A stretch of DNA of 64,000 bases from Gemmatimonadota bacterium (GTDB taxonomy: Bacteria; Gemmatimonadota; Gemmatimonadetes; Longimicrobiales; RSA9), in contig JADGQX010000001.1 of the NCBI GenBank assembly GCA_017881445.1, positions 1,942 to 65,941 of the forward strand. Direction: 5' to 3'. A program made the translations under genes and the position numbers. This document shows positions 1-41,784 of the stretch, piece after piece. The notes beneath the pieces were generated by a model, which did not search any database, was not told where the DNA came from, and worked only from the letters and a program-made list of their open reading frames with translations. Positions within the stretch are counted from its first letter, which is position 1; each line of letters opens with the position of its first letter.

Positions 1-1503
1 CGGCAGCCGCACCTGCAGGTCCAGGTAGGCCATCCACTCGAACGGGTCGCGTGGCCGCGGCGCCCGCTCGAGGAAGCGCTCGCGCACCGGCGCGAGCGCG
101 CTCCACGAGCCCTCGGGCCCGCGCGCGTCCCGCAGCCGCTTCACCAGGATGCGCCGCTTGGCACGGTCGGGCAGCCCCTCGGCGCCGCCCCAGAACACCG
201 GCAGCGACGCCGCGTCCCGGCGCAGCCACTCGTAGGGGAACGCCTCGTCCCGGCCCACCACCCGCAGCGCGGCCAGCCCCGCGCGCTTCAGTGCGCGGGG
301 GACCGGCCAGGCGGCGGCCCGCTGCAGGCGCAGCTTCAGCTTCCACTCGGGGTAGCCGCAGAACAGCTCGTCGCTGCCCTCGCCCACCTGGCACACGATG
401 ACGCCGGCGTCGCGCGCGAGCTTCGAGATGTAGTAGACGGGCACGCAGACCGGATCGGCGATCGGCTCGTCCTGGTGCGCGACCACGAGCGGCATCGCGC
501 CGAGCACATCCTCGAGCGTCAGCCGCCGCTCGTGGTGGAGCGCGCCGATGCCGCGCGCCACCTCGCTGGCGAAGTCGAATTCGTTCCTGTAGCTGGCGTA
601 GTCCCGCTCGTAGCCGATGGAGAAGGTCCGCACGGGCTCGGCAGAGTGCTCGGCGAAGAGCACGGCGTTGGTGGTCGAGTCGATGCCGCCCGAGAGGAAG
701 ATGCCGACCGGGACATCGGCCATCTTCCGGAGCTCGACGGCAGCGCGCAGCTCGTCCAGGATCAGGCGCGAGAGCTCGTGCTCGTCCGCGCCCTCCAGCG
801 ACCGGGTCTCGTCCCAGACGTCCCACCAGCGTTCCTGGCGCACGTCACCGTCACGATGTACCCGGGCCCGACAGCCGCCGGGCAGCTTGTAGATGCCCTG
901 GAAGAGCGTGCGCGGCGCCGGGACGACGAGGAACGACAGGTAGTCGACGAGCGCATCCTCGTCCAGCGCGGCACGCACGCGATCGCCCGCCAGCAACGCC
1001 TTGATCTCCGAGGCGAAGAGGAGGCGCCCGCCGGCCACCGTCCAGTAGAGCGGCTTGATGCCGATGCGGTCCCGCACGAGCCACAGGTCTCCGGCTTCGT
1101 CGTCCCAGAGAGCGAACGCGAACATCCCGCGGAATCTGTGGATGCAGTCGATTCCCCACTCCTCGTATGCGTGGAGAATGACCTCCGTGTCCGAGTGATC
1201 GGTGCGGAAGCGGTGTCCCGCCCGCTCCAGCTCCGGACGCAGCTGGGCGTGGTTGTAGATCTCGCCGTTGAAGACGACGCGGACCGAGCCGGTCTCGTTT
1301 TCCATCGGCTGCGCCGCGGCCTCCGAGAGATCCACGATGGCCAGGCGACGATGGGCGAGACCCACGCTCCCGTCCGCGGCGGCCCAGACACCGGCGCCGT
1401 CGGGACCGCGGTGAACCATCCGGTCCCGCATGCGCACGAGCTCCTCCGGGCAGATCGGAGGGGCCGCATGGTCGAGGCGCACAGCGCCGGCGATGCCGCA
1501 CAC
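1..1503 (-). CDS. asnB: Asparagine synthase (glutamine-hydrolysing), AsnB-like amidotransferase. The C-terminus runs off the window start.
   Basis: It is absent from the ORF track because no stop codon lies inside the window. Reverse translation from GTG at 1503-1501 gives (M)CGIAGAV...HRRLAIVDLSE...VPVGIFLSGGIDSTTNAV. That is a class-II amidotransferase Cys2 N-terminus plus an SGGxDS PP-loop. The frame stays open to position 1. Confidence 0.9.
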   Translation of the reverse strand, partial: MCGIAGAVRLDHAAPPICPEELVRMRDRMVHRGPDGAGVWAAADGSVGLAHRRLAIVDLSEAAAQPMENETGSVRVVFNGEIYNHAQLRPELERAGHRFRTDHSDTEVILHAYEEWGIDCIHRFRGMFAFALWDDEAGDLWLVRDRIGIKPLYWTVAGGRLLFASEIKALLAGDRVRAALDEDALVDYLSFLVVPAPRTLFQGIYKLPGGCRARVHRDGDVRQERWWDVWDETRSLEGADEHELSRLILDELRAAVELRKMADVPVGIFLSGGIDSTTNAVLFAEHSAEPVRTFSIGYERDYASYRNEFDFASEVARGIGALHHERRLTLEDVLGAMPLVVAHQDEPIADPVCVPVYYISKLARDAGVIVCQVGEGSDELFCGYPEWKLKLRLQRAAAWPVPRALKRAGLAALRVVGRDEAFPYEWLRRDAASLPVFWGGAEGLPDRAKRRILVKRLRDARGPEGSWSALAPVRERFLERAPRPRDPFEWMAYLDLQVRLP

Positions 1504-1506
1504 CGC

Positions 1507-3687
1507 TCAGCTCCCGGCTTCCGCCGGTGAACGGCCGAGCAGCTGCTCGACACGCAGTGCGATGCGCGTGGCCTGCACCTGCTGCCAGAGCGGTATCGGC
1601 CACTCGCCGCCCTCACGCACGGCCCGGCCGAACGCCTCCAGCTCCGCCAGGTGGCCCTTGTCCTGGCGACGCGTCTTCAGCCCGCCGCCGCGGCCGTGGA
1701 AGCGCAGTCCGCGATAGTCGTCGAGCTCGCCCACGACCCCGTCGCAGAAGACGTCCAGCCGCTCCTTGGGGAAGTCGCGGTTGCCCAGCGCCGTGTAGGT
1801 GAGGGAGGCCAGGGAGCCGTCCCGGAAGCGCAGTGTCGCCACGAAGTTGTCGTTGCGGGCCAGGTGACCCGTGCCCGGGCGAATGGAGAGCGCCTGCACG
1901 GTCTCAACCGGCTCGCCCACCAGGTAGCCCAGCAGGTCGTACACGTGGCAGGCCTCGCCGATGTTGCGGCCGCCGCCCTGCGGGCCGTGCACCCAGTGGT
2001 CGAGCGGGATGTGGCCGGCGTTCATGCGGTAGTCGAGCATGGCCGGCGCGCCGCGCCCCTGCAGCAGCTCCCGCAGCCGGCGCGCGTGGGGCGAGAAGCG
2101 GCGGTTGAAGCCCGTCAGCAGCACGGGCGGGGCGCGGCGCGCCTCCGCCTCGTCCGCGAAGAACCGCTCCAGCTCCTCCAGCTCCTCCGGCGTGAGCGCC
2201 AGCGGCTTCTCCAGCAGCACGTGCTTCCCCGCCCGCAGCGCGGCCAGCGCCATGGCGGCATGGCTGTCGTGGCGGGTGCAGATGATCACGGCGTCCACCG
2301 CATCGTCGGCGAGGACGGCGTCGTAGTCGGTGGTGGCGTAGGCGGCGCCGAACTGCTCCGCCGCCCGCAGGGCGCCCGGTCCGCTCCGGCTCATGACGGC
2401 GCGCAGCTCGAAGGCGGAAGAGAGCTTCTGCAGGTTGGGCAGGTGCACGCCCCGCGCGAAGTCGCCCGCGCCCACCAGGGCGATGCGCGTGCGCCCGCTG
2501 CCCGTCCGGGCGGGAGCGGGGCGCAGATCCACGCGCCGCCGCGGCGGCGCCGCGGCATCGGCGGCATCCAGCACACCGGGATAGGAGAGCAGCACGATCG
2601 GCTGGGCCGCGCCGGCCGCCGCCGCGGCGAAGGCCTCCGGGGCGCGCTCCACGGGGAACGTGCCCTGGAGCAGCGGGCCGAGCCGCACGCGCCCCTCGGC
2701 CAGCAGGCGCAGGTACTCCACCATGTTCCGGTTCTCGGTCCAGCGCACGTAGCCGATCGGGTAGTCGTGACCCTCCCGCTCGTACTGCGGGTCGTAGCGA
2801 CCGGGACCGTAGGAGGTGGAGATGAAGAACTCGATCTCGCGCGGGTAGATGTCCTCGCGGCGCATGCCCAGCCCCACGTCCCCCACGACCACCACCCGGC
2901 CCTTGCGGCGACACATGCGAAAGGCGCTCGCGAGCAGATCGTCGGAGGACGTGGCGGCGGTGAGGATCACGCCATCGGCGCCCTGGCCGTCGGTCAGGCG
3001 CTTAACGGCCGCCGCGGGATCCGCCTCGTCCGCCGCCAGGGCCGCGTCCATCCCCAGCGCGAGCGCCAGCGCCACCCGCTCCCGGCTCAGGTCCAGCCCC
3101 GCCACGCGGCAGCCATGGGCGCGCAGGAGCTGCACCGTGAGCTGGCCCAGCAGTCCCAGGCCGACCACCACGAACCACTCCCCCAGCGTGGGCGCGGCGC
3201 GCCGCACCCCGTGCAGGGCGATGGCACCAAGTGTAACGGTGGAGGCCTCGTCGAAACTGAGGCCGCCGGGCACGCGCGCGACCAGGTTGCGCGGAACCGC
3301 CACCAGCTCGGCGTGGCTGGCCAGGCCGGCGCCGGCGCAGGCGACGCGGTCGCCCACGGCCAGGTCCGCCACGCCCGCGCCCACTTCCACGACGGTGCCG
3401 GCCACGCTGTAGCCGGTGGGGGCGCCTGCGTTCAGCTCGCCGCGCACGGCCGAGATGGCGCCGGCCACGCCGCGCTGCAGCGCCAGGTCGACGACCGCCT
3501 TCACCCGCTCGGGGTGCTCCAGGGCGCGACGGACCAGTGGCTGCCGCTGGGCGTCGATGCCGGCGTGCTCGGTGCCCGCCGAGATGCACGAGGCGGCCAC
3601 GCCCACCAGGACGGTGCCCGGAGCCGCGCGGGGGGCCGGCACATCCGCCACGACGACCTTGCCCGCCCGGATCAGGACCTGCTTCAT
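1507..3687 (-). CDS. Bi-domain oxidoreductase. The N-terminal half is a zinc-type alcohol-dehydrogenase-like (MDR) domain. It is fused to a C-terminal Gfo/Idh/MocA-type NAD(P) oxidoreductase.
   Basis: ORF track 1507..4359, trimmed to ATG 3687 (MKQVLIRAGKVVV...). The 224 upstream codons are Arg/Ala/Gly-rich and overlap the GT2 gene in another frame. The N-half shows GTVVEVG and GLGLLG. The C-half shows IALVGAGDFARGVHLPNL and EKPLALT. There is an ATGA start/stop overlap with the upstream gene. Confidence 0.85.
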   Translation of the reverse strand: MKQVLIRAGKVVVADVPAPRAAPGTVLVGVAASCISAGTEHAGIDAQRQPLVRRALEHPERVKAVVDLALQRGVAGAISAVRGELNAGAPTGYSVAGTVVEVGAGVADLAVGDRVACAGAGLASHAELVAVPRNLVARVPGGLSFDEASTVTLGAIALHGVRRAAPTLGEWFVVVGLGLLGQLTVQLLRAHGCRVAGLDLSRERVALALALGMDAALAADEADPAAAVKRLTDGQGADGVILTAATSSDDLLASAFRMCRRKGRVVVVGDVGLGMRREDIYPREIEFFISTSYGPGRYDPQYEREGHDYPIGYVRWTENRNMVEYLRLLAEGRVRLGPLLQGTFPVERAPEAFAAAAAGAAQPIVLLSYPGVLDAADAAAPPRRRVDLRPAPARTGSGRTRIALVGAGDFARGVHLPNLQKLSSAFELRAVMSRSGPGALRAAEQFGAAYATTDYDAVLADDAVDAVIICTRHDSHAAMALAALRAGKHVLLEKPLALTPEELEELERFFADEAEARRAPPVLLTGFNRRFSPHARRLRELLQGRGAPAMLDYRMNAGHIPLDHWVHGPQGGGRNIGEACHVYDLLGYLVGEPVETVQALSIRPGTGHLARNDNFVATLRFRDGSLASLTYTALGNRDFPKERLDVFCDGVVGELDDYRGLRFHGRGGGLKTRRQDKGHLAELEAFGRAVREGGEWPIPLWQQVQATRIALRVEQLLGRSPAEAGS

Positions 3688-4613
3688 GGCAACGGCCTTT
3701 CCTTCGCGGCGGCGGCGGCCGCGCCCCGCGCCACCCTCCAGTCGGGTCCCAGCCGCCGGTCGGAACTGCGCCGCCCCAGCTGGAAGCCGAGCCAGCGCGT
3801 GAACTCGTAGACGAGCAGCTGCGGCAGGCGATGCACGTGCCCCTGCCGGACGATGTAGGCCAGCTCGGAGCCGAGGAAGCGCGCCGATTCCCGCAGGCTG
3901 GCGCCGCCATCGATCCCCGTCTCCGCCAGCGCCTGCCCCACCAGGAACGTCCGGCGGAACAGCCCGCGGAAACCGTAGACGTGGGCGTGCAGTGCCTCCG
4001 CCGCCGGCTCGTAACGCAGCGAGTAGCCGGCGGCCAGCACCGTGTGCGCCCAGATCAGGTCCTCGCTGTACGACGCCCGCTCGGGGAACGGGATGCGCAG
4101 CGCCAGGTCGCGGCGCACGGCGCTGAACGCATTGGAGAAGAGCACCCGCCCGGGACGCGGATGGTGCCCGCCCGGCCGCGGATCGAAGCGCAGGGGCGTC
4201 TCGGGGTAGTTCAGGGCGACGAAGAACATCTCCATCGTGCTGGCATCGTGCGGCACCTGGCGCCCGTAGACGCCCGCCACCGTGGGATCGCGCAGCGCCT
4301 CGGCGAAGCGGAGCGGCCAATCGAAGGTGCAGGGCAGCACGTCGTGCGTGAGGAAGCACACCACGTCCCCGGTCGCCAGGCGCAGGCCCAGGTTGCGCGT
4401 GCGCCCGTGCCCGAACTCCGCCGGCGGAATGCGATGCACCCGGAAGCCGGCGCGCTCCGCGTCCTCGGCCGTGCCGTCGCTGGACCCCGAGTCGATGACC
4501 ACCACCTCCACGCCGTGGCGGTCGCGCACGAGCTGCAGGTGACGGCTCAGGTGAGCGAACAGCTCGCCGCCGTCGCGGACCGGCAGCACTACCGAGATGC
4601 GCTCCGCCTCCAT
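3684..4613 (-). CDS. Family 2 glycosyltransferase (soluble, rhamnosyltransferase-like)
   Basis: ORF track 3684..5294, trimmed to ATG 4613 (MEAERISVVLPVRDGG...VVVIDSGSSDGT...). This is a GT-A/GT2 N-terminal signature. The start overlaps the upstream stop (TGATG), and the stop overlaps the next start (ATGA). Confidence 0.85.
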   Translation of the reverse strand: MEAERISVVLPVRDGGELFAHLSRHLQLVRDRHGVEVVVIDSGSSDGTAEDAERAGFRVHRIPPAEFGHGRTRNLGLRLATGDVVCFLTHDVLPCTFDWPLRFAEALRDPTVAGVYGRQVPHDASTMEMFFVALNYPETPLRFDPRPGGHHPRPGRVLFSNAFSAVRRDLALRIPFPERASYSEDLIWAHTVLAAGYSLRYEPAAEALHAHVYGFRGLFRRTFLVGQALAETGIDGGASLRESARFLGSELAYIVRQGHVHRLPQLLVYEFTRWLGFQLGRRSSDRRLGPDWRVARGAAAAAAKERPLP

Positions 4614-5806
4614 CAGACCCGCCCGAAACCGGAGCCGCGCAGCAGGCTGAGGAAGAACGATGCGAAGACGATCTCTCCGCCCAGCACCATGAGCGTCATG
4701 GCCAGCAGCGCCGGGCGCACGGCGAACAGCATCCCCGCGCCCGCCGCCAGCCAGCTCGCCAGAATCCAGACGTTCACCACCAGGCCGGCGAAGAACGACA
4801 GGCCGCCCACGAAGACGCCCCGCTCCAGCGTGTAATGCAGGTGGAACCAGCGCACCCACGCCTCGGCGGGACCGGTGTCGTTCACCAGCGCGTACGTCTT
4901 GGCGTAGATGCCCAGCAGCAGGAGCTGGAAGCCGAACATCGCCAGCGCGCCGCCCACGAACATGAAGTGGTAGTCGAAATGCAGGCGCCCGACGCGGATC
5001 GGTCCGGGCACCAGTACGCCCTCCAGCACCAGCCCCGCCACCAGCAGGAGCATGCCGGGGACCAGGAACAGCTTCGCGGGGCTGAGCAACAGGAGCTGGC
5101 GAGCCACGCGCCAGCCATCGCCCACCCGGCGGCGCGAGGCGCCGCCGTCGCGGGGACGGAAGCGCACGGGCACCTCCATGACGCTCAGCTCCGCCCGGGC
5201 CGCCTGCAGCAGCATCTCGCTGGCGAACTCCATCCCCACCGCACCCATCTCCATGCGCCCCAGCGCCTCGCGTGTGACGGAGCGCATGCCGCAACGCACG
5301 TCGGAAACGGTGAAGGGGAAGAACCGGCGGGCGAGCCAGTTCTGCAGCGGCTCCAGGAAATGACGGTGGCGCTTGCGCATGGCGCGCGGCAGGATCTCGC
5401 CGTTGCGCCGCGTGCCGATCACCAGGTCATAGCCCGCCCGCAACGGCTCCACGAAGCGGTTCAGCTCGGAGAAGTCGTAGGTGCCGTCGGCATCGGCCAG
5501 CACCATGAAGCGGCCGCTCGCCGCCTCGAGGCCACGCAGGCAGGCGGCGCCGTAGCCGCGAATCGGCTGCCTGACCACGTGCGCCCCGGCCGCGGCCGCG
5601 CGTTCGGCGGAGCCGTCGGTGGAACCATTGTCGCAGACCACGATCTCCGCTTCGTACCCGGCCGCTCCCAGCGCCGCGCGGGCCGCGTCGATGCAGCCCA
5701 CGATCGTCTCCGCCTCGTTCATGCAGGGCATGACCAGCGACACATCCACGGTCGCGGATGCGGCGCGGGAGTCGTCGGCGTCGAGGAGCCAGGTTGTGGT
5801 CGACAT
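4613..5806 (-). CDS. Family 2 glycosyltransferase with a C-terminal multi-helix membrane domain (polyprenyl-phosphate glycosyltransferase-like)
   Basis: ORF 4613..5806. It carries VSLVMPCMNEAETI, VVCDNGSTDGS and LADADGTYD. Several hydrophobic helices follow (LLLLSPAKLFLVPGMLLLVAGLVL, FMFVGGALAMFGFQLLLLGIY, GGLSFFAGLVVNVWILASWL). Confidence 0.85.
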   Translation of the reverse strand: MSTTTWLLDADDSRAASATVDVSLVMPCMNEAETIVGCIDAARAALGAAGYEAEIVVCDNGSTDGSAERAAAAGAHVVRQPIRGYGAACLRGLEAASGRFMVLADADGTYDFSELNRFVEPLRAGYDLVIGTRRNGEILPRAMRKRHRHFLEPLQNWLARRFFPFTVSDVRCGMRSVTREALGRMEMGAVGMEFASEMLLQAARAELSVMEVPVRFRPRDGGASRRRVGDGWRVARQLLLLSPAKLFLVPGMLLLVAGLVLEGVLVPGPIRVGRLHFDYHFMFVGGALAMFGFQLLLLGIYAKTYALVNDTGPAEAWVRWFHLHYTLERGVFVGGLSFFAGLVVNVWILASWLAAGAGMLFAVRPALLAMTLMVLGGEIVFASFFLSLLRGSGFGRV

Positions 5807-5809
5807 GCG

Positions 5810-6676
5810 TCAGCCCGGATCCGGCGCGCTCGCCCGCGGCGTGGGCCGCGGCGCCGTCGCGCCATTCGGCCGCTCGACCGCCTCGGGGGTGTCGGTGGCC
5901 GGCGACGCGGATCGGGGAGGCGCCGCGGCCCGCAGCGGCCTGGCCTCGCCCCCCGTCCGGAATACCGGCGGTCGCGGCCCCGCCAGGTTGCACTTCAGGA
6001 TGTGCCAGAGCGCCGAGAAGCCGTCCTTCCAGTTGATCTTCTTGCCCTCGGCATAGGTGCGGCCGGCATAGCTGATGGGCAGCTCGTAGATGATGGCCCG
6101 GGACTGCGCCAGCCGCGCGGTCAGCTCGGGCTCGATGCCGAACCGTTCCGCGGTGAGGGGCAGGCTCTTCATCAGGTCCGCCCGCACCATCTTGTAGCAC
6201 GTCTCCATGTCCGTCAGGTTCAGGTCCGTGAACATGTTGGACAGGAGCGTGAGCAGACCGTTGCCCACGCTGTGCCAGAAGTAGAGCACGCGGTGGGCGC
6301 CGCAGGAGAAGCGGCTGCCGAAAACCGCGTCCGCGCGCCCGTCGGCGATCGGCTCCAGCAGCCGTGGCAGCTCGCCGGGGTCGTACTCCAGGTCCGCGTC
6401 CTGGATCACGATCACTTCGCCCGTGGCGTGGGCGATCCCGCTGCGGACCGCGGCGCCCTTGCCGCGGTTCTGCGGGTGCGAGACCAGCACGTCCACCAGC
6501 CCCTCCGACCGCAGCCGCTCCAGCACCACCAGCGTGCCGTCGGCCGAGGCGTCGTTCACGCAGACCAGCTCGATGCCCAGGGGTACGCCCCGCAAACGCG
6601 CAATGGAGCGTTCCACGGTGGCCGCCTCGTTGTACACGGGCATGACCACGCTCAGCCGAATGCCGGTTTCCATCAT
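5810..6676 (-). CDS. Family 2 glycosyltransferase (DPM1/polyprenol-phosphate type) with a Pro/Ala-rich tail
   Basis: ORF 5810..6676. It carries [25 protein letters not shown] and [10 protein letters not shown]. The start overlaps the regulator stop (ATGA at 6673-6676). Confidence 0.85.
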
Positions 6677-8043
6677 TCGCCCAGTCCGTAGCGATTGATC
6701 TTGCGGTACAGCGTCGAGGGGTCGATGCCCAGGATCTCCGCCGCCCGCGCCTTGTTGCCGCTCTCCGCCCGTAACACCCAGGCAATGTACGCCCGCTCGA
6801 TCACCTCGAGCGTGGGATTCGAGGGCGCTGCCTCGCCCACCAGGGGCGTCGCGCCCGGCTCCCGGATGCTCTTCGGCAGTGACGCCAGCCCCACCACGCC
6901 ATCCCGCGCCAGGATGAGCGCGCGCTCCAGTGCGTTCTCCAGCTCCCGCACGTTGCCAGGCCAGTCATAGGCGCGCAGCGCATCCAGTGCCTCCCCGGTG
7001 AGCGCCGGCTGCTCGATGTCCCGGGCGTGGGAGAGCTTGGCGACGAAATGCTCCGCCAGCAACTGTACGTCGTCGCGGCGATCGCGCAGCGGGGGCATGT
7101 GCAGCGAGATCACGTTCAACCGGTAGTACAGGTCGCTGCGGAACCCGCCTCGCCGCATCTCCTCCTCCAGGTCGCGGTTGGTGGCCGCGATGATGCGGAC
7201 GTCGATGTCCTGCGTCTGCGTCGAGCCGACGGGCACGATCTCCCGCTCCTGGATGGCCCGCAGCAGCTTCACCTGCAGCGCCGCCGACATCTCGGCCACC
7301 TCGTCCAGGAAGAAGGTGCCGCCGCGAGCCGCCGTCAGCAGCCCGTCCTTGTCCCGGACCGCCCCGGTGAAGCTGCCCCGCACGTGACCGAACAGCTCCG
7401 ATTCCAGCAGGTTCTCGGGGAGTGCGCCGCAGTTGATGGAGATGAACGGGCCGTCGGCGCGCTCGGAGAGCTGATGGATGTAGCGGGCGATGATCTCCTT
7501 GCCCGTGCCGCTCTCCCCCGTGATCAGCACCGTGGAGTCCGTGGGGGCCACCGTCTCGCCCAGCCGCACGACGTCCAGGAACGCCCGGTTCTTGCCCACC
7601 GGCCGGGCCGAGCCCGACGTGTCCCGGCGGCGGATCTCCTTCTTGAGCTGCCGGTTCTCCCGCGTCAGTGCCCGCGTCTCCGCCGCCCGGTGGCAGAGCG
7701 CCGCCATGTCGTCGTTGCGGAACGGCTTCTGGACGTAGTAGAACGCGCCCTGGTTCACGGCCTGCACCGCCGACTGCAGCGACGCCTGCGCCGTCATCAG
7801 GATCACGGGCAGGTCGGGGTCCGACTCCCGCACCGCCGCGAGCACGTCGATGCCGGACACCCCGGGCATGCGGATGTCCGTGAGCACCACGTCCGGCTCG
7901 ATCTCCGGCAGACGCAACAGGCCATCCCGGCCGCTGTCCGCCACCGATACCTCGAAGCCTTCCCCCCGCAAGAGGATACGGAGCGTGTCCAGGATCGACC
8001 GCTCGTCGTCGATGATCAGGACCTTCGGCATCGTCGCCGTCAC
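6673..8043 (-). CDS. Sigma-54-dependent response regulator (NtrC/PilR family enhancer-binding protein)
   Basis: ORF 6673..8043. The receiver domain shows [15 protein letters not shown] and VQKPF. The AAA+ domain shows GESGTGKE, the GSFTGA sigma-54 contact loop and FFLDEV. A Fis-type HTH follows ([21 protein letters not shown]). GTG 8043 overlaps the kinase stop (GTGA). ATG 8031 (MPKVLIIDD) is an alternative start. Confidence 0.92.
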
Positions 8044-9665
8044 GCGCGGCTCTCCGACTGCGAGGGCAGGAAGACCTGGAAGCTGGCACCTTCGCCCGTC
8101 CCAGGCTCAACGAAAATCGCGCCGTTGTGCGCCTCCACGGCGCGATGTACCAGGGCCAGCCCCAGCCCGGTGCCACCCCGCCGCGTGCTGAAGAAGGGAT
8201 CGAACAGCCGCGGCAGGTCCTCCGCCGCGATGCCGGGCCCCGTGTCCGCCACCGCGATCCGTACCGGTGCCGGAAGGCGCACCCCCGCCGGGAGCTGCGA
8301 CTCCAGCACCCGGCCCACCTCCACCCGCACCGAGCCGTCCACCCCCGCGTGCTGCACCGCGTTCAGGATCAGGTTGAACAGCGCCCGATGCAGCAGGTCC
8401 GCGTCACCCTCCACCGACACGCCGTCGGTGGGCGGCTCGAAATCGATGCGGCACCCCTGGGAATCCGGATGCTGACTCACCAGCCCCACCGCGTTCATCG
8501 CCAGGCCCGCCAGGTCCACCTGCTCCCGCCGCCGCACCTCCACCCGGCTGAACTCCATGAACTCCGTCAGCAGCCGGCTCAGCCGGTCCGACTCGCTCAG
8601 CACCAGCGACCGCAGCACGTCCCGGTCTTCCACCTGGATCTTTCCCCCCGTCAGCTGCTCCGTGGCACTGCGGATCGACGCCAGCGGGTTCTTGATCTCG
8701 TGCGCCAGCGACGCGCCCAGCTCCGCCACCGCCTCCAGCCGCTCCGCCCGCCGCTTCAGCTCCTCCACCCGCTTCGACTGCGTGATGTCCTGGAAGACCG
8801 CCGTCACCCAGGGCGCCCCCTTCCGCTCCAGCACCGTCGTCCGGGCACCCAGCATCCCGCTCCCACGCGACCGCGGCAGCCGGATCTCGTACCGCTCGCG
8901 CGCCACCCCGCTCGACAACGTCGCCATGATCAGCCGGCCCAGCCCCGGCGCCCGACGGTCCAGCTCCTCCACGATCGGCAGCCCCCGCCACTCCCGCTCC
9001 ACCAGCCCCAACAGCCGCTCGCCCGCGCCGTTCAGGTACACCAGCCGCCCACCACCATCTGTCGTCACCAGCCCCGAGTCGATCCCCCGCAGGATCTCCC
9101 CCAGGTCCAGCCGCATCTGGTGCAGCTCCGACTCCGCCAGCCCCAGCGCCGTCCCCGTCCGCCGCAGACGATCCCCCAATGCGCCGGTCACTACCGCCAT
9201 CACCACGAACAGCACGATCTGCAGCAGCGCCGCCCTGGGCGCCGCATCCGGCTGCAGCAACAGCGCGTCCGCCACGTACAGGGCGCTCGCCAGGGCGCCG
9301 ATCAGCGCGCCCCCCGGCATCGGCAGCAGCAACGCCCCGGTCGCGATGACCAGGATGTAGAGCGGAGGGAACTCGCTGCGTGCGCCACCGGTAACGTGCA
9401 CCACGGCCGTCACCAGCAGCGCGTCGAATACCACCTGCGCGTACATGAACCCGTGCCCGGGCTGGCGCTCGAGCATGTACGTGTACCACAGCGAGCCTAC
9501 GGTGAACGCTACCGACAGCAGCAGGATCAACGTCGCGGTCAGCGACGTCGACGGCGTGATCCGTGGCCAGACCAGCAGGGCGCCGGCAAATACTCCGGCC
9601 GCCACCGTCAGGCGGCCGAAATACAGCCATCGCAGCGTGCGCAGCGGATGCATCATCGCGTCCAC
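8040..9665 (-). CDS. Membrane sensor histidine kinase (PilS/NtrB-like)
   Basis: ORF 8040..9665. It has about six N-terminal hydrophobic helices and a PAS-like middle segment. The H-box is SLAHEIKNPLASI. The ATPase boxes are LILNAVQH, DTGPGI and GGTGLGLA. The start is GTG 9665, or ATG 9656/9653. Confidence 0.9.
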   Translation of the reverse strand: MDAMMHPLRTLRWLYFGRLTVAAGVFAGALLVWPRITPSTSLTATLILLLSVAFTVGSLWYTYMLERQPGHGFMYAQVVFDALLVTAVVHVTGGARSEFPPLYILVIATGALLLPMPGGALIGALASALYVADALLLQPDAAPRAALLQIVLFVVMAVVTGALGDRLRRTGTALGLAESELHQMRLDLGEILRGIDSGLVTTDGGGRLVYLNGAGERLLGLVEREWRGLPIVEELDRRAPGLGRLIMATLSSGVARERYEIRLPRSRGSGMLGARTTVLERKGAPWVTAVFQDITQSKRVEELKRRAERLEAVAELGASLAHEIKNPLASIRSATEQLTGGKIQVEDRDVLRSLVLSESDRLSRLLTEFMEFSRVEVRRREQVDLAGLAMNAVGLVSQHPDSQGCRIDFEPPTDGVSVEGDADLLHRALFNLILNAVQHAGVDGSVRVEVGRVLESQLPAGVRLPAPVRIAVADTGPGIAAEDLPRLFDPFFSTRRGGTGLGLALVHRAVEAHNGAIFVEPGTGEGASFQVFLPSQSESRA

Positions 9666-9737
9666 ATCTGTCCGGGCATTCGGCTCCGGCCGCGGCAGCG
9701 GCCGGGTTCGGCGGGTTGCTCCAAGCTACGCGCGGTC

Positions 9738-9752
9738 CTTGCAAGTTGCAAG
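9738..9752. promoter_or_regulatory. Palindromic doublet CTTGCAAGTTGCAAG, a candidate enhancer/operator site
   Basis: Two abutting copies of the self-complementary hexamer TTGCAA lie in the divergent intergenic region. They sit about 130 bp upstream of the -24/-12-like element at 9869-9885. Function is inferred only. Confidence 0.3.
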
Positions 9753-9868
9753 CGCCTCTGTTCGCGAAATGCCGCTGGGCCCGCTTCGGCACCCGGCATG
9801 GGGGAAGCGAGGGGGCAAGGTGTCCATCCAGTTGGAGAGGCGCGGGGAACGCGGGCGGCGGCCCGGAA

Positions 9869-9885
9869 CTGGTATGCCGCTTGCG
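9869..9885 (+). promoter_or_regulatory. Candidate sigma-54 (-24/-12) promoter for the 9986..13120 gene
   Basis: In CTGGTAT-GCCGC-TTGCG the GG and GC are exactly 10 nt apart, as in TGGCAC-N5-TTGC. It lies 101 nt upstream of ATG 9986. The -24 box deviates from consensus (TGGTAT). A chance match is possible in GC-rich DNA. Confidence 0.4.
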
Positions 9886-9985
9886 CGCTGGGACTGGAGC
9901 GCCGAACGTGGCGGGACGCCAGCAGGCCGGTGACGGCGGCGTGTTCCGCGCGAGGCGCGGACGATCATTACGCGAGGGGGTCGGC

Positions 9986-12900
9986 ATGCGGTCGCGGATC
10001 CGAGGTCAGGGGTGGGCGGGGACGCTGTCACTGGTCCTGGGGCTGTTGGCCTCGGCGTCGGGGGCTGCCGGGCAGGAGTTCGGGCGGAACAAGGTGGCGT
10101 GGGAGAACTACGATTGGCGGGTGCTGCACACGCCGCACTACAACATCCACTACTACCCGATCGAGGCGGAGCACGTCGCGGACGCGTCGCGCATGGCGGA
10201 GCGCTGGAACGCGCGGCTGGGCAGGGAGTTCCAGCACACGCTGACGGAACTGAAGCCGATCATCTTCTACGCGGACGCACCGGCGTTCTACGGCAACAAC
10301 GTGACGCCGGGGCTGGGTCAGGGGGTAGGCGGCGTGACGGAGCCGATCCACACGCGACTGATCATGCCGTTCACCGGTGTCTACAAGGACGACGACCACG
10401 TGCTGGGGCACGAGATGGTGCACGTGTATCAGTACGACATCGCGGAGGGTCGGGCGGGAGCGGCACAGACGACGGGCGGCGGACTGGCGGCCATGGGTCG
10501 TCTGCCGTCGTGGATGATCGAGGGGATGGCGGAGTACCTGTCGCTGGGGCGGGAGGACCCGCTGACGGCGATGTGGATGCGGGACGCGGCGCTGACGGGG
10601 CATCTGCCGACGGTGGCGCAGCTGAACTCGGACGATCCGCGCTACTTCCCCTATCGGTACGGCGAGGCGCTGTGGGCGTACATCGGGGGCAAGTGGGGGG
10701 ACCGGGCGGTGACGGAGATCTACCGCTTCTCGCTGCGGGAAGGCCCTGAGGCGGCACTGCGGCGGGTGTTGGGCGAGTCGCCACAGCAGCTGGGGCAGGA
10801 ATGGCTGACGGCGGTGCGCACGACGTACCTGCCGCTGGTGGAGGGACGGACGCGGCCGGGTGACGTGGGTCACCTGATCACGGGCAAGAACAAGCCGCAG
10901 GACATGAACGTGGGGCCGGAGCTGAGCCCGGACGGCAAGTACGTCGCGTTCTTCAGCGCGCGGGGGCTGTTCTCCATCGACCTGTTCCTGGCGGACGTGG
11001 AAACGGGGAAGGTGGTGAAGAAGCTGGCCAGTCCGATCGGCAACTCGCACATCGAGGACATTTCCTTCGTGTACTCGTCCGGGACGTGGTCGCCGGACGC
11101 GAAGAAGTTCGCCTACATCGTGTACGCCAAGGGGGGCAACCAGCTCGCGATCCTGGACGCCGCCTCGGGCAAGACCCAGCGCTACATCGGCGTGCAGAAC
11201 GTGGGCGAGATGACGAACCCGGCCTGGTCGCCGGATGGCAGCCAGATCGCCTTCAGCGGGAACAAGGGCGGTAACTCGGATCTGTACCTGGTGGACGTGG
11301 CGACGGGGACGACGCGCCAGATCACGAACGACCGCTACGCGGACCTGCATCCGGCCTGGTCGCCGGATGGGCGCACGCTGGCCTGGGCCACCGACCGGGA
11401 GCAGGGCACCGACTTCCAGAAGCTGACGTACGCGCCGCTCAAGATCGCGCTCATGGATGTGGCCAGCGGGCAGATCCGGCTGCTGCCCGGGAATGGCAAC
11501 GCGCAGCAGATCAACCCGCAGTTCTCGGCGGACGGACGCAGCGTCTACTTCGTCTCGAATGCGGGCGGCTACTCGGACATCTACCGCCAGGACCTGTCCA
11601 CGAACCAGCTCTACCAGGTCACGCACCTGGCCACGGGCGTGAGCGGCATCACGGCGCTGTCGCCGTCGCTGTCCGTGGCGCGGCAGACGGGGCGGCTGGG
11701 GTTCTCCGTGTTCCAGAACGGCGGCTACAACCTGTACTCGCTCGAGGCGGGCCAGGCGCAGGGGACGGCGCTGCCGGCGAACCCGGAGCAGGTGGCCTCG
11801 GCGGGCATCCTGCCGCCGGTCACCGCCCTGACCACGAGCATCGTCGTGCAGTACCTGCAGGACCCGGCCATGGGGCTGCCGGATGGGGACACGCGCTACG
11901 CCAGCACCGACTACAAGCCCACGCTGCGCCTGGACTACGTCGGGCAGCCGACCATCGGGGTGGGCACGACCGGGTACGGCACGGCGGTGGGCGGCGGCGC
12001 TTCCGCCTACTTCAGCGACCTCCTGGGGAACCGTACGCTGGGCGTGGCGGTGCAGGCCAACGGCACGATCCAGGACATCGGCGGTCAGGCGTTCTACCTG
12101 AACACGGGCCACCGCTGGAATTGGGCGGCCATGATCGCGCACATCCCCTACCTCACCGGGGGCACCGACGTTACGTCCAACAGCGACGGGACCTACTTCA
12201 TCAACCAGCACCTGATCCGCGTCTTCGTGGACCAGGCGATGATGGCGGTGCAGTACCCCTTCAACCAGACGCACCGCGTCGAGTTCAACGCCGGGTACAC
12301 GCATTACGGCTACAGCACGCAGTTGTTCCAGTTCCTGACCGACGCTGCGGGCAACATCATCGGGGAGCAGCAGAGCAACAACGACCCGCTCTTCGCCGGC
12401 CAGCTGAACGGGTTCCACACCGTCCAGGCCGCCGCGGCGGTCGTGGGGGACTGGGCCATGTTCGGCTTCACCTCCCCCATCGCCGGCGGCCGCTACCGGC
12501 TGGAGGTGAGCCCCACCGTCGGCAGCATGAAGTTCAATTCGGTGCTGGCCGACTACCGGCAGTACCTGTGGGCGAACCCGTTCACCTTCGCGGTGCGGGC
12601 CATGACGTACGGCCGCTGGGGCAACGACGCCGGGGATCAGCGGCTCTCGCCGCTCTTCCTGGGCTATCCGACGTTCATCCGCGGCTACGAGGCCAGCAAC
12701 TTCGGTGGCGCCGAATGCTCCTCCACTGTGGCGACCCAGAGTTGCCCCGAGTTCAACCGCCTGATCGGCAGCAAGATCGCCGTGGCCAACGCGGAGATCC
12801 GGGTCCCGCTTTTCGGCGTGCCGGGTTACGGGCTGCTGAACTTCCCCTTCCTGCCCACCGAGATCGCGCCCTTCGTGGACGCGGGCATGGCCTGGGGACC

Positions 12901-13120
12901 CGTGTCACCCTACACCAACGCCGACTACCAGTCGCCGCGGCTGGTGTTCGACCGGAACCCCGACTGCGCCGTCGGCTGCCGCGTGCCCGTCTTCAGCACG
13001 GGCGTGAGCGCCCGCATCAACGTGCTCGGCTACCTGGTGGCCGAGATCTACTACGCCTACCCGTTCCAGCGCCCGCTGAAGGGCGCCCACTTCGGGTTCA
13101 ACCTCTCGCCGGGGTGGTGA
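9986..13120 (+). CDS. Secreted fusion protein: peptidase-MA-like zinc domain, TolB/PD40-like beta-propeller and C-terminal Omp85 (bacterial surface antigen) type beta-barrel
   Basis: ORF track 9563..13120, trimmed to ATG 9986. A GAGGGGG SD lies 6 nt upstream, and the signal peptide is MRSRIRGQGWAGTLSLVLGLLASASGAAG. HEMVH and MIEGMAEY suggest a zinc site. Repeated SPDG/WSPDG blades follow. The C-terminal third carries FIRGYE, ANAEIRVPLF and PFVDAGMAW, and ends ...FGFNLSPGW. Confidence 0.85.
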   Translation: MRSRIRGQGWAGTLSLVLGLLASASGAAGQEFGRNKVAWENYDWRVLHTPHYNIHYYPIEAEHVADASRMAERWNARLGREFQHTLTELKPIIFYADAPAFYGNNVTPGLGQGVGGVTEPIHTRLIMPFTGVYKDDDHVLGHEMVHVYQYDIAEGRAGAAQTTGGGLAAMGRLPSWMIEGMAEYLSLGREDPLTAMWMRDAALTGHLPTVAQLNSDDPRYFPYRYGEALWAYIGGKWGDRAVTEIYRFSLREGPEAALRRVLGESPQQLGQEWLTAVRTTYLPLVEGRTRPGDVGHLITGKNKPQDMNVGPELSPDGKYVAFFSARGLFSIDLFLADVETGKVVKKLASPIGNSHIEDISFVYSSGTWSPDAKKFAYIVYAKGGNQLAILDAASGKTQRYIGVQNVGEMTNPAWSPDGSQIAFSGNKGGNSDLYLVDVATGTTRQITNDRYADLHPAWSPDGRTLAWATDREQGTDFQKLTYAPLKIALMDVASGQIRLLPGNGNAQQINPQFSADGRSVYFVSNAGGYSDIYRQDLSTNQLYQVTHLATGVSGITALSPSLSVARQTGRLGFSVFQNGGYNLYSLEAGQAQGTALPANPEQVASAGILPPVTALTTSIVVQYLQDPAMGLPDGDTRYASTDYKPTLRLDYVGQPTIGVGTTGYGTAVGGGASAYFSDLLGNRTLGVAVQANGTIQDIGGQAFYLNTGHRWNWAAMIAHIPYLTGGTDVTSNSDGTYFINQHLIRVFVDQAMMAVQYPFNQTHRVEFNAGYTHYGYSTQLFQFLTDAAGNIIGEQQSNNDPLFAGQLNGFHTVQAAAAVVGDWAMFGFTSPIAGGRYRLEVSPTVGSMKFNSVLADYRQYLWANPFTFAVRAMTYGRWGNDAGDQRLSPLFLGYPTFIRGYEASNFGGAECSSTVATQSCPEFNRLIGSKIAVANAEIRVPLFGVPGYGLLNFPFLPTEIAPFVDAGMAWGPVSPYTNADYQSPRLVFDRNPDCAVGCRVPVFSTGVSARINVLGYLVAEIYYAYPFQRPLKGAHFGFNLSPGW

Positions 13121-41410: not shown

Positions 41411-41509
41411 TTCGCGACACCCGGTACGGGAGGCCTCCCGGGGACTCCAGGAGAAGCCGGCCCCGAAGCTACTACGCCGCCTTACCGGCGGACAAGAGCG
41501 GAGCCGCGG

Positions 41510-41525
41510 CGGCATGGCCGTTGCC
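41510..41525 (+). promoter_or_regulatory. Sigma-54-like -24/-12 element upstream of the M16 peptidase gene
   Basis: CGGCAT-GGCCG-TTGCC has correct GG-N10-GC spacing and matches GGCA...TTGC. It lies 260 nt upstream of ATG 41785, a long distance. This could be chance. Confidence 0.25.
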
Positions 41526-41784
41526 CGACAATGGGTGGAATTGTCGTAAGCACAACCGCTTATGAGATGAAGGCGGATATGGCTCGAGCCGGAGCCGCGG
41601 CCCGCTCCACCACGGGCCACGACACCCTCCGCGAATGGGTCGAGACCCCGCTGCCACCCCGCCACGGTCGACCGCAGCCGCTGGCGGGTGAGCGCTCCGG
41701 GCCGCACCTTTGCCGCGCCTGGTGTGTAGTAGCCCGCTCGACGGGCGCCCGAGCGCACCGCCGCGACCCCGATCAGCAGGACCC

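What the first reader, a model, noticed from the sequence alone, without database searches (positions are those of the whole stretch)
9738..9985. Candidate sigma-54 promoter and palindromic TTGCAA doublet ahead of the giant OMP gene, back-to-back with an operon encoding a sigma-54 activator
Seen in sequence:
- CTGGTATGCCGCTTGCG (9869-9885, + strand) places GG and GC exactly 10 nt apart, as in the TGGCAC-N5-TTGC consensus. It lies 101 nt upstream of ATG 9986.
- About 130 bp further upstream lies CTTGCAAGTTGCAAG (9738-9752). This is two abutting copies of the self-complementary hexamer TTGCAA.
- The divergent operon (6673-9665) encodes an NtrC-family activator with a GSFTGA loop, plus its sensor kinase.

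Established knowledge: bacterial enhancer-binding proteins bind inverted repeats roughly 80-150 bp upstream of -24/-12 promoters.

Inference: the neighbouring two-component system may directly switch on the peptidase/propeller/Omp85 gene.

Caveats: the -24 box is TGGTAT, not TGGCAC. GG-N10-GC plus TTGC should also occur a few times by chance in this amount of GC-rich intergenic DNA.
Basis: partly seen in the sequence, partly recalled or inferred. Interest (0 to 1): 0.6.

Follow-up and report, generated by a model that had tools for sequence, protein, structure and literature searches.

The report
Conserved sigma-54 promoter plus regulator site
A promoter of the sigma-54 type, kept across many related uncultured soil bacteria, sits in front of a large outer-membrane protein gene. 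The nearby palindrome looks like the docking site and own-gene promoter of the neighbouring activator, so this is an ordinary kind of switch in a phylum where none has been studied.

Summary

**Sigma-54 promoter (9870-9884): real, P about 0.9.**
- The core pattern alone is not enriched in the window (6 found, 5.3 expected).
- The same -24/-12 element lies upstream of the orthologous outer-membrane gene in 28/81 genome loci and 24/76 metagenome loci (0.45 and 0.35 expected). It never occurs on the opposite strand.
- A matrix built from other genomes ranks 9866-9891 first in the 64 kb.
- The + strand of the intergenic region has no TAnnnT hexamer.

**Doublet (9739-9751): conserved, but tied to the kinase operon, not to the outer-membrane gene.**
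- It reads as a 13-bp palindrome, TTGCA-AGT-TGCAA, equal to the Vibrio LuxO consensus TTGCAW3TGCAA.
- It lies 25-90 nt upstream of the kinase start in every locus with that kinase start in the first (genome) set.
- It overlaps a conserved sigma-70-type promoter, TTGCAA-N17-TAnnnT.
- Its distance to the sigma-54 site ranges from about 70 bp to 2.4 kb. Sigma-54-bearing loci without the neighbouring two-component system lack it.

**Best reading (about 0.45-0.5).** The NtrC-type regulator binds the palindrome, limits its own operon and activates the divergent sigma-54 promoter, as at luxO-qrr1. This is a new member of a known kind. rpoN and binding were not testable.

The parts
9870..9884 (+). Sigma-54 type -24/-12 promoter core, TGGTAT-GCCGC-TTGC (GG 9871-9872, GC 9883-9884). 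The extended scored site is 9866-9891.
   Evidence: Sequence. Conserved at orthologous loci. Top hit of the orthologue-derived matrix in the window, 20.4 bits. None of 200 simulated 64-kb sequences reached that score.
9896..9896 (+). Predicted transcription start, 12 nt after the C of the -12 GC.
   Evidence: Inference from the fixed geometry of sigma-54 promoters. Not mapped.
9896..9985 (+). Predicted 90-nt leader, with Shine-Dalgarno GAGGGGG at 9974-9980.
   Evidence: Sequence. The ACGCGAGGGGG block is conserved. No Rfam family matched. Folding is no better than shuffles, z = 0.07.
9986..13120 (+). Target gene: 1044-aa protein with a signal peptide, a BSP-peptidase-like region, PD40/Tricorn beta-propellers and a C-terminal Omp85 barrel.
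   Evidence: Pfam. More than 7000 homologues, mostly Gemmatimonadota.
9739..9751 (.). Site A: 13-bp palindrome TTGCA-AGT-TGCAA (the doublet), centred about -151 from the predicted start. Candidate operator and enhancer of the neighbouring regulator.
   Evidence: Found 25-90 nt upstream of the kinase start in all 15 set-1 loci that hold that start, and again in L164-L170. L084 and L087 carry variants; the rest of set 2 was not scanned. Equals the LuxO consensus TTGCAW3TGCAA.
9762..9774 (.). Site B: weaker half-palindrome TCGCG-AAA-TGCCG, centred 23 bp from site A at about -128. The block TT(T/C)GCGAAAT is conserved in close relatives.
9746..9751 (-). -35 hexamer TTGCAA of the sigma-70-type promoter of the kinase operon. 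It is the right half of site A.
   Evidence: TTGCAN-N-YTGCMA-N10-TAnnnT is found in 10 of 12 close-clade loci. It is the only TTGnnn-N16-18-TAnnnT in the intergenic region on either strand.
9723..9728 (-). -10 hexamer TAGCTT of the kinase-operon promoter, 17 nt after the -35 hexamer.
9823..9827 (+). Conserved GTGTC block between site B and the sigma-54 promoter. Role unknown.
   Evidence: Kept at -62 to -90 from the predicted start in the five closest relatives. Only weakly enriched across all loci.
8040..9656 (-). Sensor histidine kinase: 6-TM PilS-like domain, PAS, HisKA, HATPase.
   Evidence: Pfam. Homologues are named PilS or NtrB by their sources.
6673..8043 (-). NtrC-type response regulator and enhancer-binding protein: REC, AAA+ sigma-54 interaction domain with GSFTGA, Fis-type HTH.
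4613..6676 (-). Two family-2 glycosyltransferase genes that continue the kinase-regulator operon. The stop and start codons overlap at 6673-6676.
   Evidence: The same gene order is seen in L081, L083 and L164-L168.

Best explanation
The outer-membrane protein gene (9986-13120) is transcribed from a genuine sigma-54 promoter, TGGTAT-N5-TTGC at 9870-9884, with a start near 9896.

The TTGCAA doublet is a LuxO-like 13-bp palindrome (site A, 9739-9751). A weaker partner (site B, 9762-9774) lies two helical turns away. Both sit on the promoter of the divergent operon. Site A covers the -35 hexamer and spacer of a sigma-70-type promoter: TTGCAA at 9751-9746, 17 nt, then TAGCTT at 9728-9723, on the minus strand. 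That promoter drives the kinase, regulator and glycosyltransferase genes.

**Proposed mechanism.**
1. The 6-TM PilS-like kinase phosphorylates the NtrC-type regulator.
2. The regulator assembles on sites A and B.
3. Bound there, it occludes its own operon's promoter (negative autoregulation).
4. By looping about 130-150 bp of DNA, it contacts sigma-54 holoenzyme at the divergent promoter and opens it by ATP hydrolysis.

This is the logic of luxO-qrr1 in Vibrio and of NtrC at glnAp1/glnAp2.

**Shown:** the motifs, their conservation, their fixed or variable spacings, the domain content, and the conserved gene neighbourhood.
**Inferred:** sigma-54 dependence (P about 0.9), binding of this regulator to the palindrome (about 0.6), and activation of the outer-membrane gene by it (about 0.45).
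For: **Sigma-54 promoter.**
- The pattern NGG[TC][AC][TC]-N5-TTGC occurs within 300 nt upstream of the orthologous gene in 28 of 81 genome loci, against 0.45 expected.
- With the pattern fixed beforehand, it occurs in 24 of 76 independent metagenome loci, against 0.35 expected.
- Together that is 52 hits on the coding strand and 0 on the other strand of the same regions.
- The canonical GGCAC-N5-TTGC occurs 20 times against 0.11 expected.
- A matrix built from 48 orthologous sites, with the window left out, scores 9866-9891 highest in the window at 20.4 bits. None of 200 simulated sequences reached that.
- The block TGGTAY-N5-TTGCGCGC stands out in otherwise poorly alignable intergenic DNA of relatives.
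- The + strand of the intergenic region holds no TAnnnT hexamer and no consensus -35/-10 promoter.

**Activator.**
- The regulator has REC, Sigma54_activat and HTH_8 domains.
- GSFTGA or GAFTGA is kept in 16 of 16 orthologues.
- Sigma-54 and 12 enhancer-binding proteins are listed for Gemmatimonas aurantiaca (PMC3162934, supplementary file 1).

**Palindrome.**
- It is present upstream of the kinase start in every locus examined for it that holds that start.
- It equals the LuxO consensus TTGCAW3TGCAA, whose sites lie upstream of sigma-54 qrr promoters next to luxO (PMC11443567). LuxO represses its own transcription (PMC3130561).
- Among response-regulator models, the HTH alone scores best against the LuxO model. 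The HTH is nearly invariant across the clades.
- In the four closest relatives the palindrome lies at -151 to -176 from the predicted start.

**Linkage.**
- The sigma-54 motif and a kinase start within 2.5 kb are associated: [[15,20],[4,70]], Fisher p = 5e-6.
Against: - The palindrome follows the kinase operon, not the sigma-54 promoter. Its distance to the predicted start ranges from -71 (L164) through -255, -449, -667 and -800, to 2.4 kb with two genes in between (L167).
- Sigma-54-bearing loci without an adjacent two-component system have no TTGCA-N3-TGCAA within 400 nt: 0 hits at up to 1 mismatch against 0.38 expected, and 2 hits at up to 2 mismatches against 3.1 expected. No motif shared by all upstream regions was found.
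- Four loci with the two-component system nearby lack a good sigma-54 site: L006, L023, L034 and L087.
- rpoN was not found in the window or in any locus. Its presence in this genome is inferred.
- The association statistics are not corrected for shared ancestry.
- The -24 box is TGGTAT rather than TGGCAC, and the base after TTGC is G rather than A/T.
- Nothing here measures binding or transcription.
Confidence: 0.5

Rival explanations
1. The sigma-54 promoter is real, but it is served by a different enhancer-binding protein or upstream site. The palindrome belongs only to the kinase operon, as its sigma-70-type promoter plus an autoregulatory operator. On this view the adjacency to the outer-membrane gene reflects shared envelope function or ancestry, not direct control.
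For: - The palindrome keeps a fixed position relative to the kinase start and its -10 hexamer, but a highly variable position relative to the sigma-54 site.
- At least 20 sigma-54-bearing loci have neither the two-component system nor the palindrome nearby.
- In L165 the two-component system, with its palindrome, has no outer-membrane gene next to it.
Against: - An enhancer-binding protein needs a sigma-54 promoter to act on. The only one near its operon is that of the outer-membrane gene.
- The divergent pairing persists down to 42% kinase identity.
- In the closest relatives the geometry is canonical, at -151 to -176.
- The luxO-qrr1 precedent uses exactly such shared sites.
Confidence: 0.3
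2. The doublet is only a promoter element of the kinase operon (a -35 hexamer plus a fortuitously similar spacer), or it is the site of some unrelated transcription factor. It is not bound by the neighbouring regulator.
For: - The 17-nt spacing to TAnnnT is exact in 10 of 12 close loci.
- The proximal hexamer varies more (CTGCCA, CTGCAA, GTGCAA) than the distal one.
Against: - Promoter spacers are not normally conserved, yet the second half-site is.
- A second related site lies 21-23 bp away in most loci.
- In the distant clade the palindrome persists without a -10 hexamer at the right spacing.
- It matches the binding consensus of an NtrC-family protein.
Confidence: 0.12
3. The conserved GG-N10-GC element is not a sigma-54 promoter. 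It would instead be another conserved signal, such as another factor's site or an RNA element.
For: - The -24 box deviates from TGGCAC.
- rpoN was not seen.
- Some related loci lack the element.
Against: - The invariant GG and TTGC with a variable 5-nt spacer, strict strand specificity and a position 20-250 nt before the start codon all fit sigma-54.
- Many orthologues carry the canonical GGCAC-N5-TTGC.
- There is no Rfam match and no unusual fold.
- An enhancer-binding protein is conserved next door.
Confidence: 0.07

Closest known systems
luxO-qrr1 locus of Vibrio: the NtrC-family regulator LuxO, its TTGCAW3TGCAA sites, the sigma-54-dependent qrr promoters, and LuxO autorepression
   Same: - The 13-bp palindrome is identical in its outer positions (TTGCA-N3-TGCAA).
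- One or two sites lie upstream of a -24/-12 promoter.
- The target sits next to the regulator's own gene.
- The regulator represses its own transcription (PMC11443567 and PMC3130561).
- Among response-regulator-type models, the HTH of the window's regulator scores best against LuxO.
   Different: - The regulator is not a LuxO orthologue: 367 bits against a cut-off of 800.
- Its partner is a membrane kinase encoded in the same operon, not a LuxU phosphorelay.
- The candidate target is a protein-coding outer-membrane gene, not a small RNA.
- The sites lie at -151 and -128 here, against about -90 to -120 in Vibrio. The distance is not conserved in relatives.
- The centre is AGT, not W3.
NtrB/NtrC with glnAp1 (sigma-70) and glnAp2 (sigma-54) of enteric bacteria. 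Cited from established knowledge, not checked here.
   Same: - Tandem dimer sites about 110-140 bp upstream of a sigma-54 promoter double as a repressing operator over a sigma-70 promoter.
- The regulator has the same REC, AAA+ and Fis-type HTH architecture.
   Different: - The recognition sequence differs (NtrC: TGCACC-N5-GGTGCA).
- The two promoters here are divergent rather than tandem.
- The NtrC equivalog model is not reached: 414 bits against a cut-off of 559.
- There are no nitrogen-assimilation genes nearby.
PilS/PilR two-component control of sigma-54-dependent pilin genes
   Same: - The kinase has the 6-TM PilS-like membrane domain (Pfam PF25323, E = 1.3e-10).
- Source databases name its homologues PilS.
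- The partner is an NtrC-type enhancer-binding protein.
   Different: - There is no pilin or pilus gene in the neighbourhood.
- The operon continues with glycosyltransferases, an oxidoreductase fusion and an AsnB-type amidotransferase.
- The candidate target is a peptidase-like/propeller/Omp85 protein.
Sigma-54 as controller of the bacterial exterior (Francke et al. 2011, PMC3162934)
   Same: A sigma-54 promoter in front of an outer-membrane protein, next to polysaccharide-type genes, fits the theme. The paper lists sigma-54 and 12 enhancer-binding proteins in Gemmatimonas aurantiaca.
   Different: That paper is a general survey. This gene family, this promoter and the lineage-typical TGGTAY -24 box were not found described in the papers searched here.

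Membership tests
sigma-54-dependent (-24/-12) promoter | GG and GC dinucleotides exactly 10 nt apart within a TGGCAC-N5-TTGCW-like sequence | tested here: met
   TGGTAT-GCCGC-TTGC-G at 9870-9885. The spacing is exact. Deviations are T for C at -23 and at -21, and G for W at -11.
sigma-54-dependent (-24/-12) promoter | Intergenic, correctly oriented, and within a few hundred nt of a start codon | tested here: met
   The motif ends 101 nt before ATG 9986, inside the 329-bp intergenic region.
sigma-54-dependent (-24/-12) promoter | Conserved at orthologous loci beyond chance | tested here: met
   28 of 81 and 24 of 76 loci against 0.45 and 0.35 expected. 52 hits on the coding strand and 0 on the opposite strand. 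Best matrix hit in the window.
sigma-54-dependent (-24/-12) promoter | rpoN present in the genome | not testable with these tools
   No RpoN box in the window or in any locus held at that point (L001-L163). Sigma-54 is listed for Gemmatimonas aurantiaca T-27 in PMC3162934, supplementary file 1.
sigma-54-dependent (-24/-12) promoter | A cognate enhancer-binding protein is available | tested here: met
   A regulator with a Sigma54_activat domain (E = 3.7e-69) and a GSFTGA loop is encoded 1.8 kb away.
sigma-54-dependent (-24/-12) promoter | Start mapped 12 nt downstream of the GC, and transcription dependent on rpoN | not testable with these tools
   Needs 5'-RACE or dRNA-seq and genetics.
sigma-54-dependent (-24/-12) promoter | No competing sigma-70-type promoter for the same gene | tested here: met
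   No consensus -35/-10 in 9400-10300. No TAnnnT hexamer at all on the + strand of 9657-9985. Caveat: promoter rules for this phylum are unknown.
NtrC-type (response-regulator) bacterial enhancer-binding protein | REC, AAA+ sigma-54 interaction domain and Fis-type HTH | tested here: met
   Pfam PF00072, PF00158, PF25601 and PF02954. The best solved relatives are NtrC4, ZraR, NtrC1 and LuxO.
NtrC-type (response-regulator) bacterial enhancer-binding protein | Intact GAFTGA loop, with F and T retained | tested here: met
   GSFTGA in the window. Orthologues carry GSFTGA (13) or GAFTGA (3). That Ser at position 2 is tolerated is inferred from this conservation, not tested.
Named regulator orthologue groups (AtoC, NtrC, ZraR, PEP-CTERM PrsR, GlrR, LuxO) | Score above the NCBIfam equivalog cut-off | tested here: not met
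   AtoC 454 against 714. NtrC 414 against 559. ZraR 385 against 760. PrsR 381 against 503. LuxO 367 against 800.
LuxO-type operator (luxO-qrr1 architecture) | 13-bp palindrome TTGCA-W3-TGCAA | tested here: met
   TTGCA-AGT-TGCAA matches 10 of 10 outer positions; the centre has 2 of 3 W. Orthologues carry AAT, ACT, AAG, GAT and GGT centres.
LuxO-type operator (luxO-qrr1 architecture) | Sites at a roughly constant, enhancer-like distance upstream of the sigma-54 start | tested here: inconclusive
   -151 and -128 in the window, and -171 to -176 in three close relatives. Elsewhere -71 to -800 and 2.4 kb.
LuxO-type operator (luxO-qrr1 architecture) | The site overlaps the regulator gene's own promoter (a basis for autorepression) | tested here: met
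   The palindrome covers the -35 hexamer and spacer of TTGCAA-N17-TAnnnT in 10 of 12 close loci. Repression itself is not testable.
LuxO-type operator (luxO-qrr1 architecture) | Physical binding of the regulator to the site | not testable with these tools
   Needs EMSA, DAP-seq or ChIP.
PilS/PilR system | Kinase with a 6-TM PilS-type sensor domain and an NtrC-type partner | tested here: met
   PF25323, E = 1.3e-10.
PilS/PilR system | The target is a type IV pilin gene | tested here: not met
   No pilin gene among the neighbours. The divergent gene is the Omp85-type protein.

The most novel reading that the evidence does not exclude
One clade of a peptidase-like/beta-propeller/Omp85 fusion protein family is a sigma-54 regulon member across Gemmatimonadota and some Acidobacteriota. 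Where it sits next to the PilS-like two-component operon, a single LuxO-like palindrome pair would act as a two-way switch. It would shut the sigma-70 promoter of the regulator and glycosyltransferase operon while firing the sigma-54 promoter of the outer-membrane gene, coupling outer-membrane remodelling to an envelope signal. This would be the first defined regulatory circuit in the phylum, and it would carry a lineage-typical TGGTAY -24 box.
Probability: 0.4. Interest if true: 0.5.

Novelty: new member of a known kind. Interest (0 to 1): 0.38.

Why it matters
- As far as the literature searched here shows, Gemmatimonadota have no experimentally defined promoters or regulons.
- A sigma-54 promoter conserved in about 50 independent loci gives a concrete element to test. 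It also gives a usable matrix for the phylum: TGGTAY or GGGCAC, then N5, then TTGC.
- A candidate operator identical to the LuxO consensus gives a second element to test.
- The finding ties an uncharacterised but very widespread outer-membrane protein family (more than 7000 homologues) to sigma-54 control. This fits the proposal that sigma-54 governs the cell exterior.
- The mechanism itself is textbook, so the value is annotation and a test bed, not a new principle.

Tried and rejected
- **Wrong spacing.** My first pattern search used N9 instead of N8 and missed the site. It was corrected.
- **Window statistics.** The core motif alone gives no enrichment within the window.
- **RNA element.** There is no Rfam family in 9400-10300 at E up to 1. 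The 105-nt stretch from the predicted start (leader plus the first codons) folds no better than shuffles. An RNA-element reading was dropped.
- **rpoN.** RpoN-box and GAFTGA regex scans of all six frames of the window and loci found no rpoN and only the one enhancer-binding protein in the window.
- **Shared upstream site.** A search for a 7-mer common to all regions upstream of sigma-54 sites found nothing general. The top hits were clade-specific.
- **Palindrome in non-adjacent loci.** TTGCA-N3-TGCAA is not enriched upstream of sigma-54 sites that lack an adjacent two-component system.
- **GTGTC.** As a general upstream element it is only 2-fold enriched, mostly from one clade.
- **Sigma-54 promoter for the kinase operon.** None was seen by eye in the upstream sequences (TGGCAC-T-TTGC in the distant clade has the wrong spacing); this was not scanned with a matrix.
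- **Closer relatives.** It was used as an independent replication set instead. Closer relatives came from the kinase search.
- **Literature.** Nothing was found on the outer-membrane protein family. A text search for the LuxO recognition-helix peptide found nothing, so the comparison with the LuxO HTH rests only on the NCBIfam model score.
Full report
**What is in the sequence.**
The window is 71% G+C. Its proteins have their closest relatives in Gemmatimonadota, mostly Longimicrobiales.

- CTGGTATGCCGCTTGCG lies at 9869-9885. GG is at 9871-9872 and GC at 9883-9884, with ten bases between them. The motif ends 101 nt before ATG 9986.
- CTTGCAAGTTGCAAG lies at 9738-9752.

ATG 9986 has a GAGGGGG ribosome-binding site and opens a 1044-aa protein. 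That protein has a signal peptide, a BSP-peptidase-like region, PD40/Tricorn propellers and a C-terminal Omp85 domain.

On the other strand an operon starts at ATG 9656. It encodes:
- a kinase with a 6-TM PilS-like domain, PAS, HisKA and HATPase;
- an NtrC-type regulator with REC, a sigma-54 interaction domain carrying GSFTGA, and a Fis-type HTH;
- two GT2 glycosyltransferases;
- further on, an ADH/GFO oxidoreductase fusion and an AsnB-type amidotransferase.

**Chance within the window.**
TGG-N8-TTGC occurs 6 times in the window against 5.3 expected, so the motif alone proves nothing.

The doublet is rarer. TTGCAA occurs only at these two positions in the 64 kb. The 13-mer has 0.27 chance matches expected.

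**The sigma-54 promoter is conserved.**
I collected 80 loci encoding relatives of the outer-membrane protein from species-representative genomes. I added three close metagenomic loci.

In the alignment of the closest ones, TGGTAY-N5-TTGCGCGC is an island of identity in otherwise unalignable DNA.

Counts of the pattern NGG[TC][AC][TC]-N5-TTGC in the 300 nt upstream of the gene:
- Genome set: 28 of 81 loci against 0.45 expected from the rest of the same loci.
- Second, independent set of 76 metagenome loci, with the pattern already fixed: 24 against 0.35 expected.
- Both sets together: 52 hits on the coding strand and none on the opposite strand of the same regions.
- Textbook core GGCAC-N5-TTGC: 20 against 0.11 expected.

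The median distance from the motif to the start codon is 73 nt.

A matrix made from the 48 distinct orthologous sites, with the window left out, gives 9866-9891 the best score in the whole window, 20.4 bits. Of 200 simulated 64-kb sequences, none reached this score; their mean maximum was 13.9.

The + strand of the intergenic region contains no TAnnnT hexamer at all, and the consensus scan found no -35/-10 promoter. There is no Rfam match, and the leader has no unusual fold.

I put the probability that this is a working sigma-54 promoter at about 0.9. The predicted start is near 9896.

**Where the motif occurs in the family.**
The outer-membrane protein family has paralogues within single genomes: L001 and L164 come from one assembly, and L009 and L024 from another.

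On a neighbour-joining tree, the sigma-54 motif and the linkage to the two-component system are both confined to one clade, plus L006 and L009.
- Close relatives use TGGTAY as the -24 box.
- A sister group uses GGGCAC.
- A few Acidobacteriota use AGGCAC or AGGTAC.
- Some members of the clade lack a convincing site: L001, L006, L023 and L034.

**The doublet belongs to the kinase operon.**
A doublet-like palindrome lies 25-90 nt upstream of the kinase start in every locus I examined for it that holds that start. This includes loci where other genes separate the kinase from the outer-membrane gene. L084 and L087 carry variants; the rest of the metagenome set was not scanned.

In the close clade it has a fixed partner. 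Reading the kinase strand, the pattern is TTGCAN-N-YTGCMA-N10-TAnnnT. That is a -35 hexamer TTGCAA, a 17-nt spacer and a -10 hexamer.
- The -10 hexamers seen are TAGCTT, TACCTT, TAAGTT, TATTTT, TACGTT, TAGCAT and TATCTT.
- The pattern matches 10 of 12 loci. L084 also matches by eye, with TTGCAT.
- With A and T near 14% each, TAnnnT at a fixed place has probability about 0.003.

In the window the -35 hexamer is 9751-9746 and the -10 hexamer is 9728-9723. This is the only such pair in the intergenic region on either strand.

The doublet therefore overlaps a conserved sigma-70-type promoter of the kinase, regulator and glycosyltransferase operon.

**The doublet still looks like a regulator site.**
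- Read as TTGCA-AGT-TGCAA, it is a 13-bp palindrome identical in all ten outer positions to the LuxO consensus TTGCAW3TGCAA. LuxO is an NtrC-family activator whose sites lie upstream of sigma-54 qrr promoters. One of these, qrr1, is next to luxO (PMC11443567). LuxO also represses its own transcription (PMC3130561).
- The half-site inside the promoter spacer is conserved, which spacers usually are not.
- A second, weaker site lies 21-23 bp away. In the window it is TCGCG-AAA-TGCCG at 9762-9774, and TT(T/C)GCGAAAT is conserved in relatives.
- In the more distant clade the palindrome persists as TSGCAC-T-TTGCRA without a -10 hexamer at the right spacing.
- The regulator's HTH is almost invariant across clades. 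Scanned alone, it scores best against the LuxO model among response-regulator-type activators: 24.7 bits, against 18.3 for NtrC and 11.3 for ZraR.

The protein is nevertheless not a LuxO, AtoC, NtrC, ZraR or PrsR orthologue by NCBIfam cut-offs.

**Does this regulator switch on the outer-membrane gene?**

*For:*
- An enhancer-binding protein must have a sigma-54 promoter to act on. The only one near its operon is this one.
- The divergent pairing is kept from 82% down to 42% kinase identity.
- The sigma-54 motif and a kinase start within 2.5 kb are associated: 15/35 against 4/74, Fisher p = 5e-6, uncorrected for ancestry.
- In the four closest relatives the palindrome centre lies at -151 to -176 from the predicted start.

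*Against:*
- Over the wider set the distance runs from -71 to -800 bp, and to 2.4 kb with two genes in between.
- Loci with the sigma-54 motif but no adjacent two-component system show no TTGCA-N3-TGCAA within 400 nt: 0 against 0.38 expected at up to 1 mismatch, and 2 against 3.1 at up to 2 mismatches.
- No upstream motif is shared by all loci.

I therefore rate binding of this regulator to the palindrome at about 0.6. I rate direct activation of the outer-membrane gene by it at about 0.45.

**Mechanism proposed.**
1. A signal is sensed in the membrane by the PilS-like kinase.
2. The regulator is phosphorylated and assembles on sites A and B.
3. Occupancy of the -35 hexamer and spacer limits its own operon.
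4. A DNA loop of about 130-150 bp lets the AAA+ ring contact sigma-54 holoenzyme at 9870-9884.
5. Transcription starts near 9896.
6. The transcript is translated into the peptidase-like/propeller/Omp85 protein.

Steps 1-5 are inferred from family knowledge and anatomy. Only the sequence features and their conservation are shown.

**What could not be settled.**
rpoN is not in the window or in any locus, and whole genomes were out of reach. Its presence is inferred from the conserved activator (GSFTGA or GAFTGA in 16 of 16 orthologues) and from Gemmatimonas aurantiaca, for which sigma-54 and 12 activators are listed (PMC3162934, supplementary file 1).

**Verdict.**
- The promoter interpretation is well supported.
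- The doublet is a real, conserved element, but its first allegiance is to the regulator's own operon.
- The regulatory link is plausible and unproven.
- In kind this is a standard sigma-54, enhancer-binding-protein and two-component arrangement, closest in layout to luxO-qrr1. It is a new member of a known kind, of moderate interest as a first handle on transcription control in Gemmatimonadota.

Noticed in passing
window 41510-41524 (+), in the 41410-41785 intergenic region: GGCATGGCCGTTGC is the second-best hit of the sigma-54 matrix (15.4 bits). It lies 262 nt upstream of a signal-peptide M16-type peptidase gene (ATG 41786-44595) and divergent from a histidine kinase with an N-terminal sensor region (39524 to about 41409, minus strand). 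It is not significant alone: 27% of simulated windows have such a hit.
   Followed up: partly
window 9823-9827; L168, L169, L170, L081: A GTGTC block is kept at -62 to -90 from the predicted start in the five closest relatives while its flanks drift. Its role is unknown; it could be a bending-protein site or a second regulator's site. Across all loci it is only 2-fold enriched.
   Followed up: partly
L001 and L164 (assembly DASTKT01); L009 and L024 (assembly CAYMLW01): The peptidase-like/propeller/Omp85 family has at least two paralogues per genome. Only one of them carries the sigma-54 motif and sits next to the two-component operon.
   Followed up: partly
L007, L008, L010, L077, L093 (upstream of the kinase gene): In the more distant clade a small arfB-like gene lies between the kinase and the outer-membrane gene. 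A perfect palindrome, TGGCAGAATGCCA, lies about 35 nt beyond the kinase-side doublet.
   Followed up: no
L007, L008, L010, L014, L026 (about 100-130 nt upstream of their sigma-54 sites): A conserved pair, CTTGTGTC or CTTGTAAC, then about 20 nt, then GGTTACAC or GGTTAGGC. It could be a sigma-70-type promoter or a clade-specific upstream site.
   Followed up: no
L071 and L128 (Vicinamibacterales); L080: Eight to nine tandem copies of GGAGTACGC or GGAATACGC lie directly upstream of the sigma-54-like site. L080 has TTCGAAC-type repeats in the same place.
   Followed up: no
L009 and L002 (kinase start): The -10 hexamer of the kinase-operon promoter ends only 6 and 11 nt before the ATG. This implies a leaderless or nearly leaderless kinase mRNA in these genomes, against a leader of about 60 nt in the window.
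   Followed up: no
window 1-6676 (-): The kinase-regulator operon runs on into two GT2 glycosyltransferases, a 950-aa zinc-ADH/GFO-IDH-MocA fusion and a glutamine-hydrolysing asparagine-synthase homologue. This points to a polysaccharide or glycoconjugate pathway. Relatives have epimerase and PMT-type genes there instead.
   Followed up: partly
L012, L085, L086, L109 (60-75 nt upstream of their sigma-54 sites): A conserved GCATGGTACGA block is found in a clade that has the sigma-54 motif but no adjacent two-component system. It could be that clade's upstream activator site.
   Followed up: no
L053, between the kinase operon and the outer-membrane gene: A small CxxC zinc-ribbon ORF (FmdB-like by eye) is inserted on the kinase strand. 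This pushes the palindrome to -667 from the sigma-54 start.
   Followed up: no
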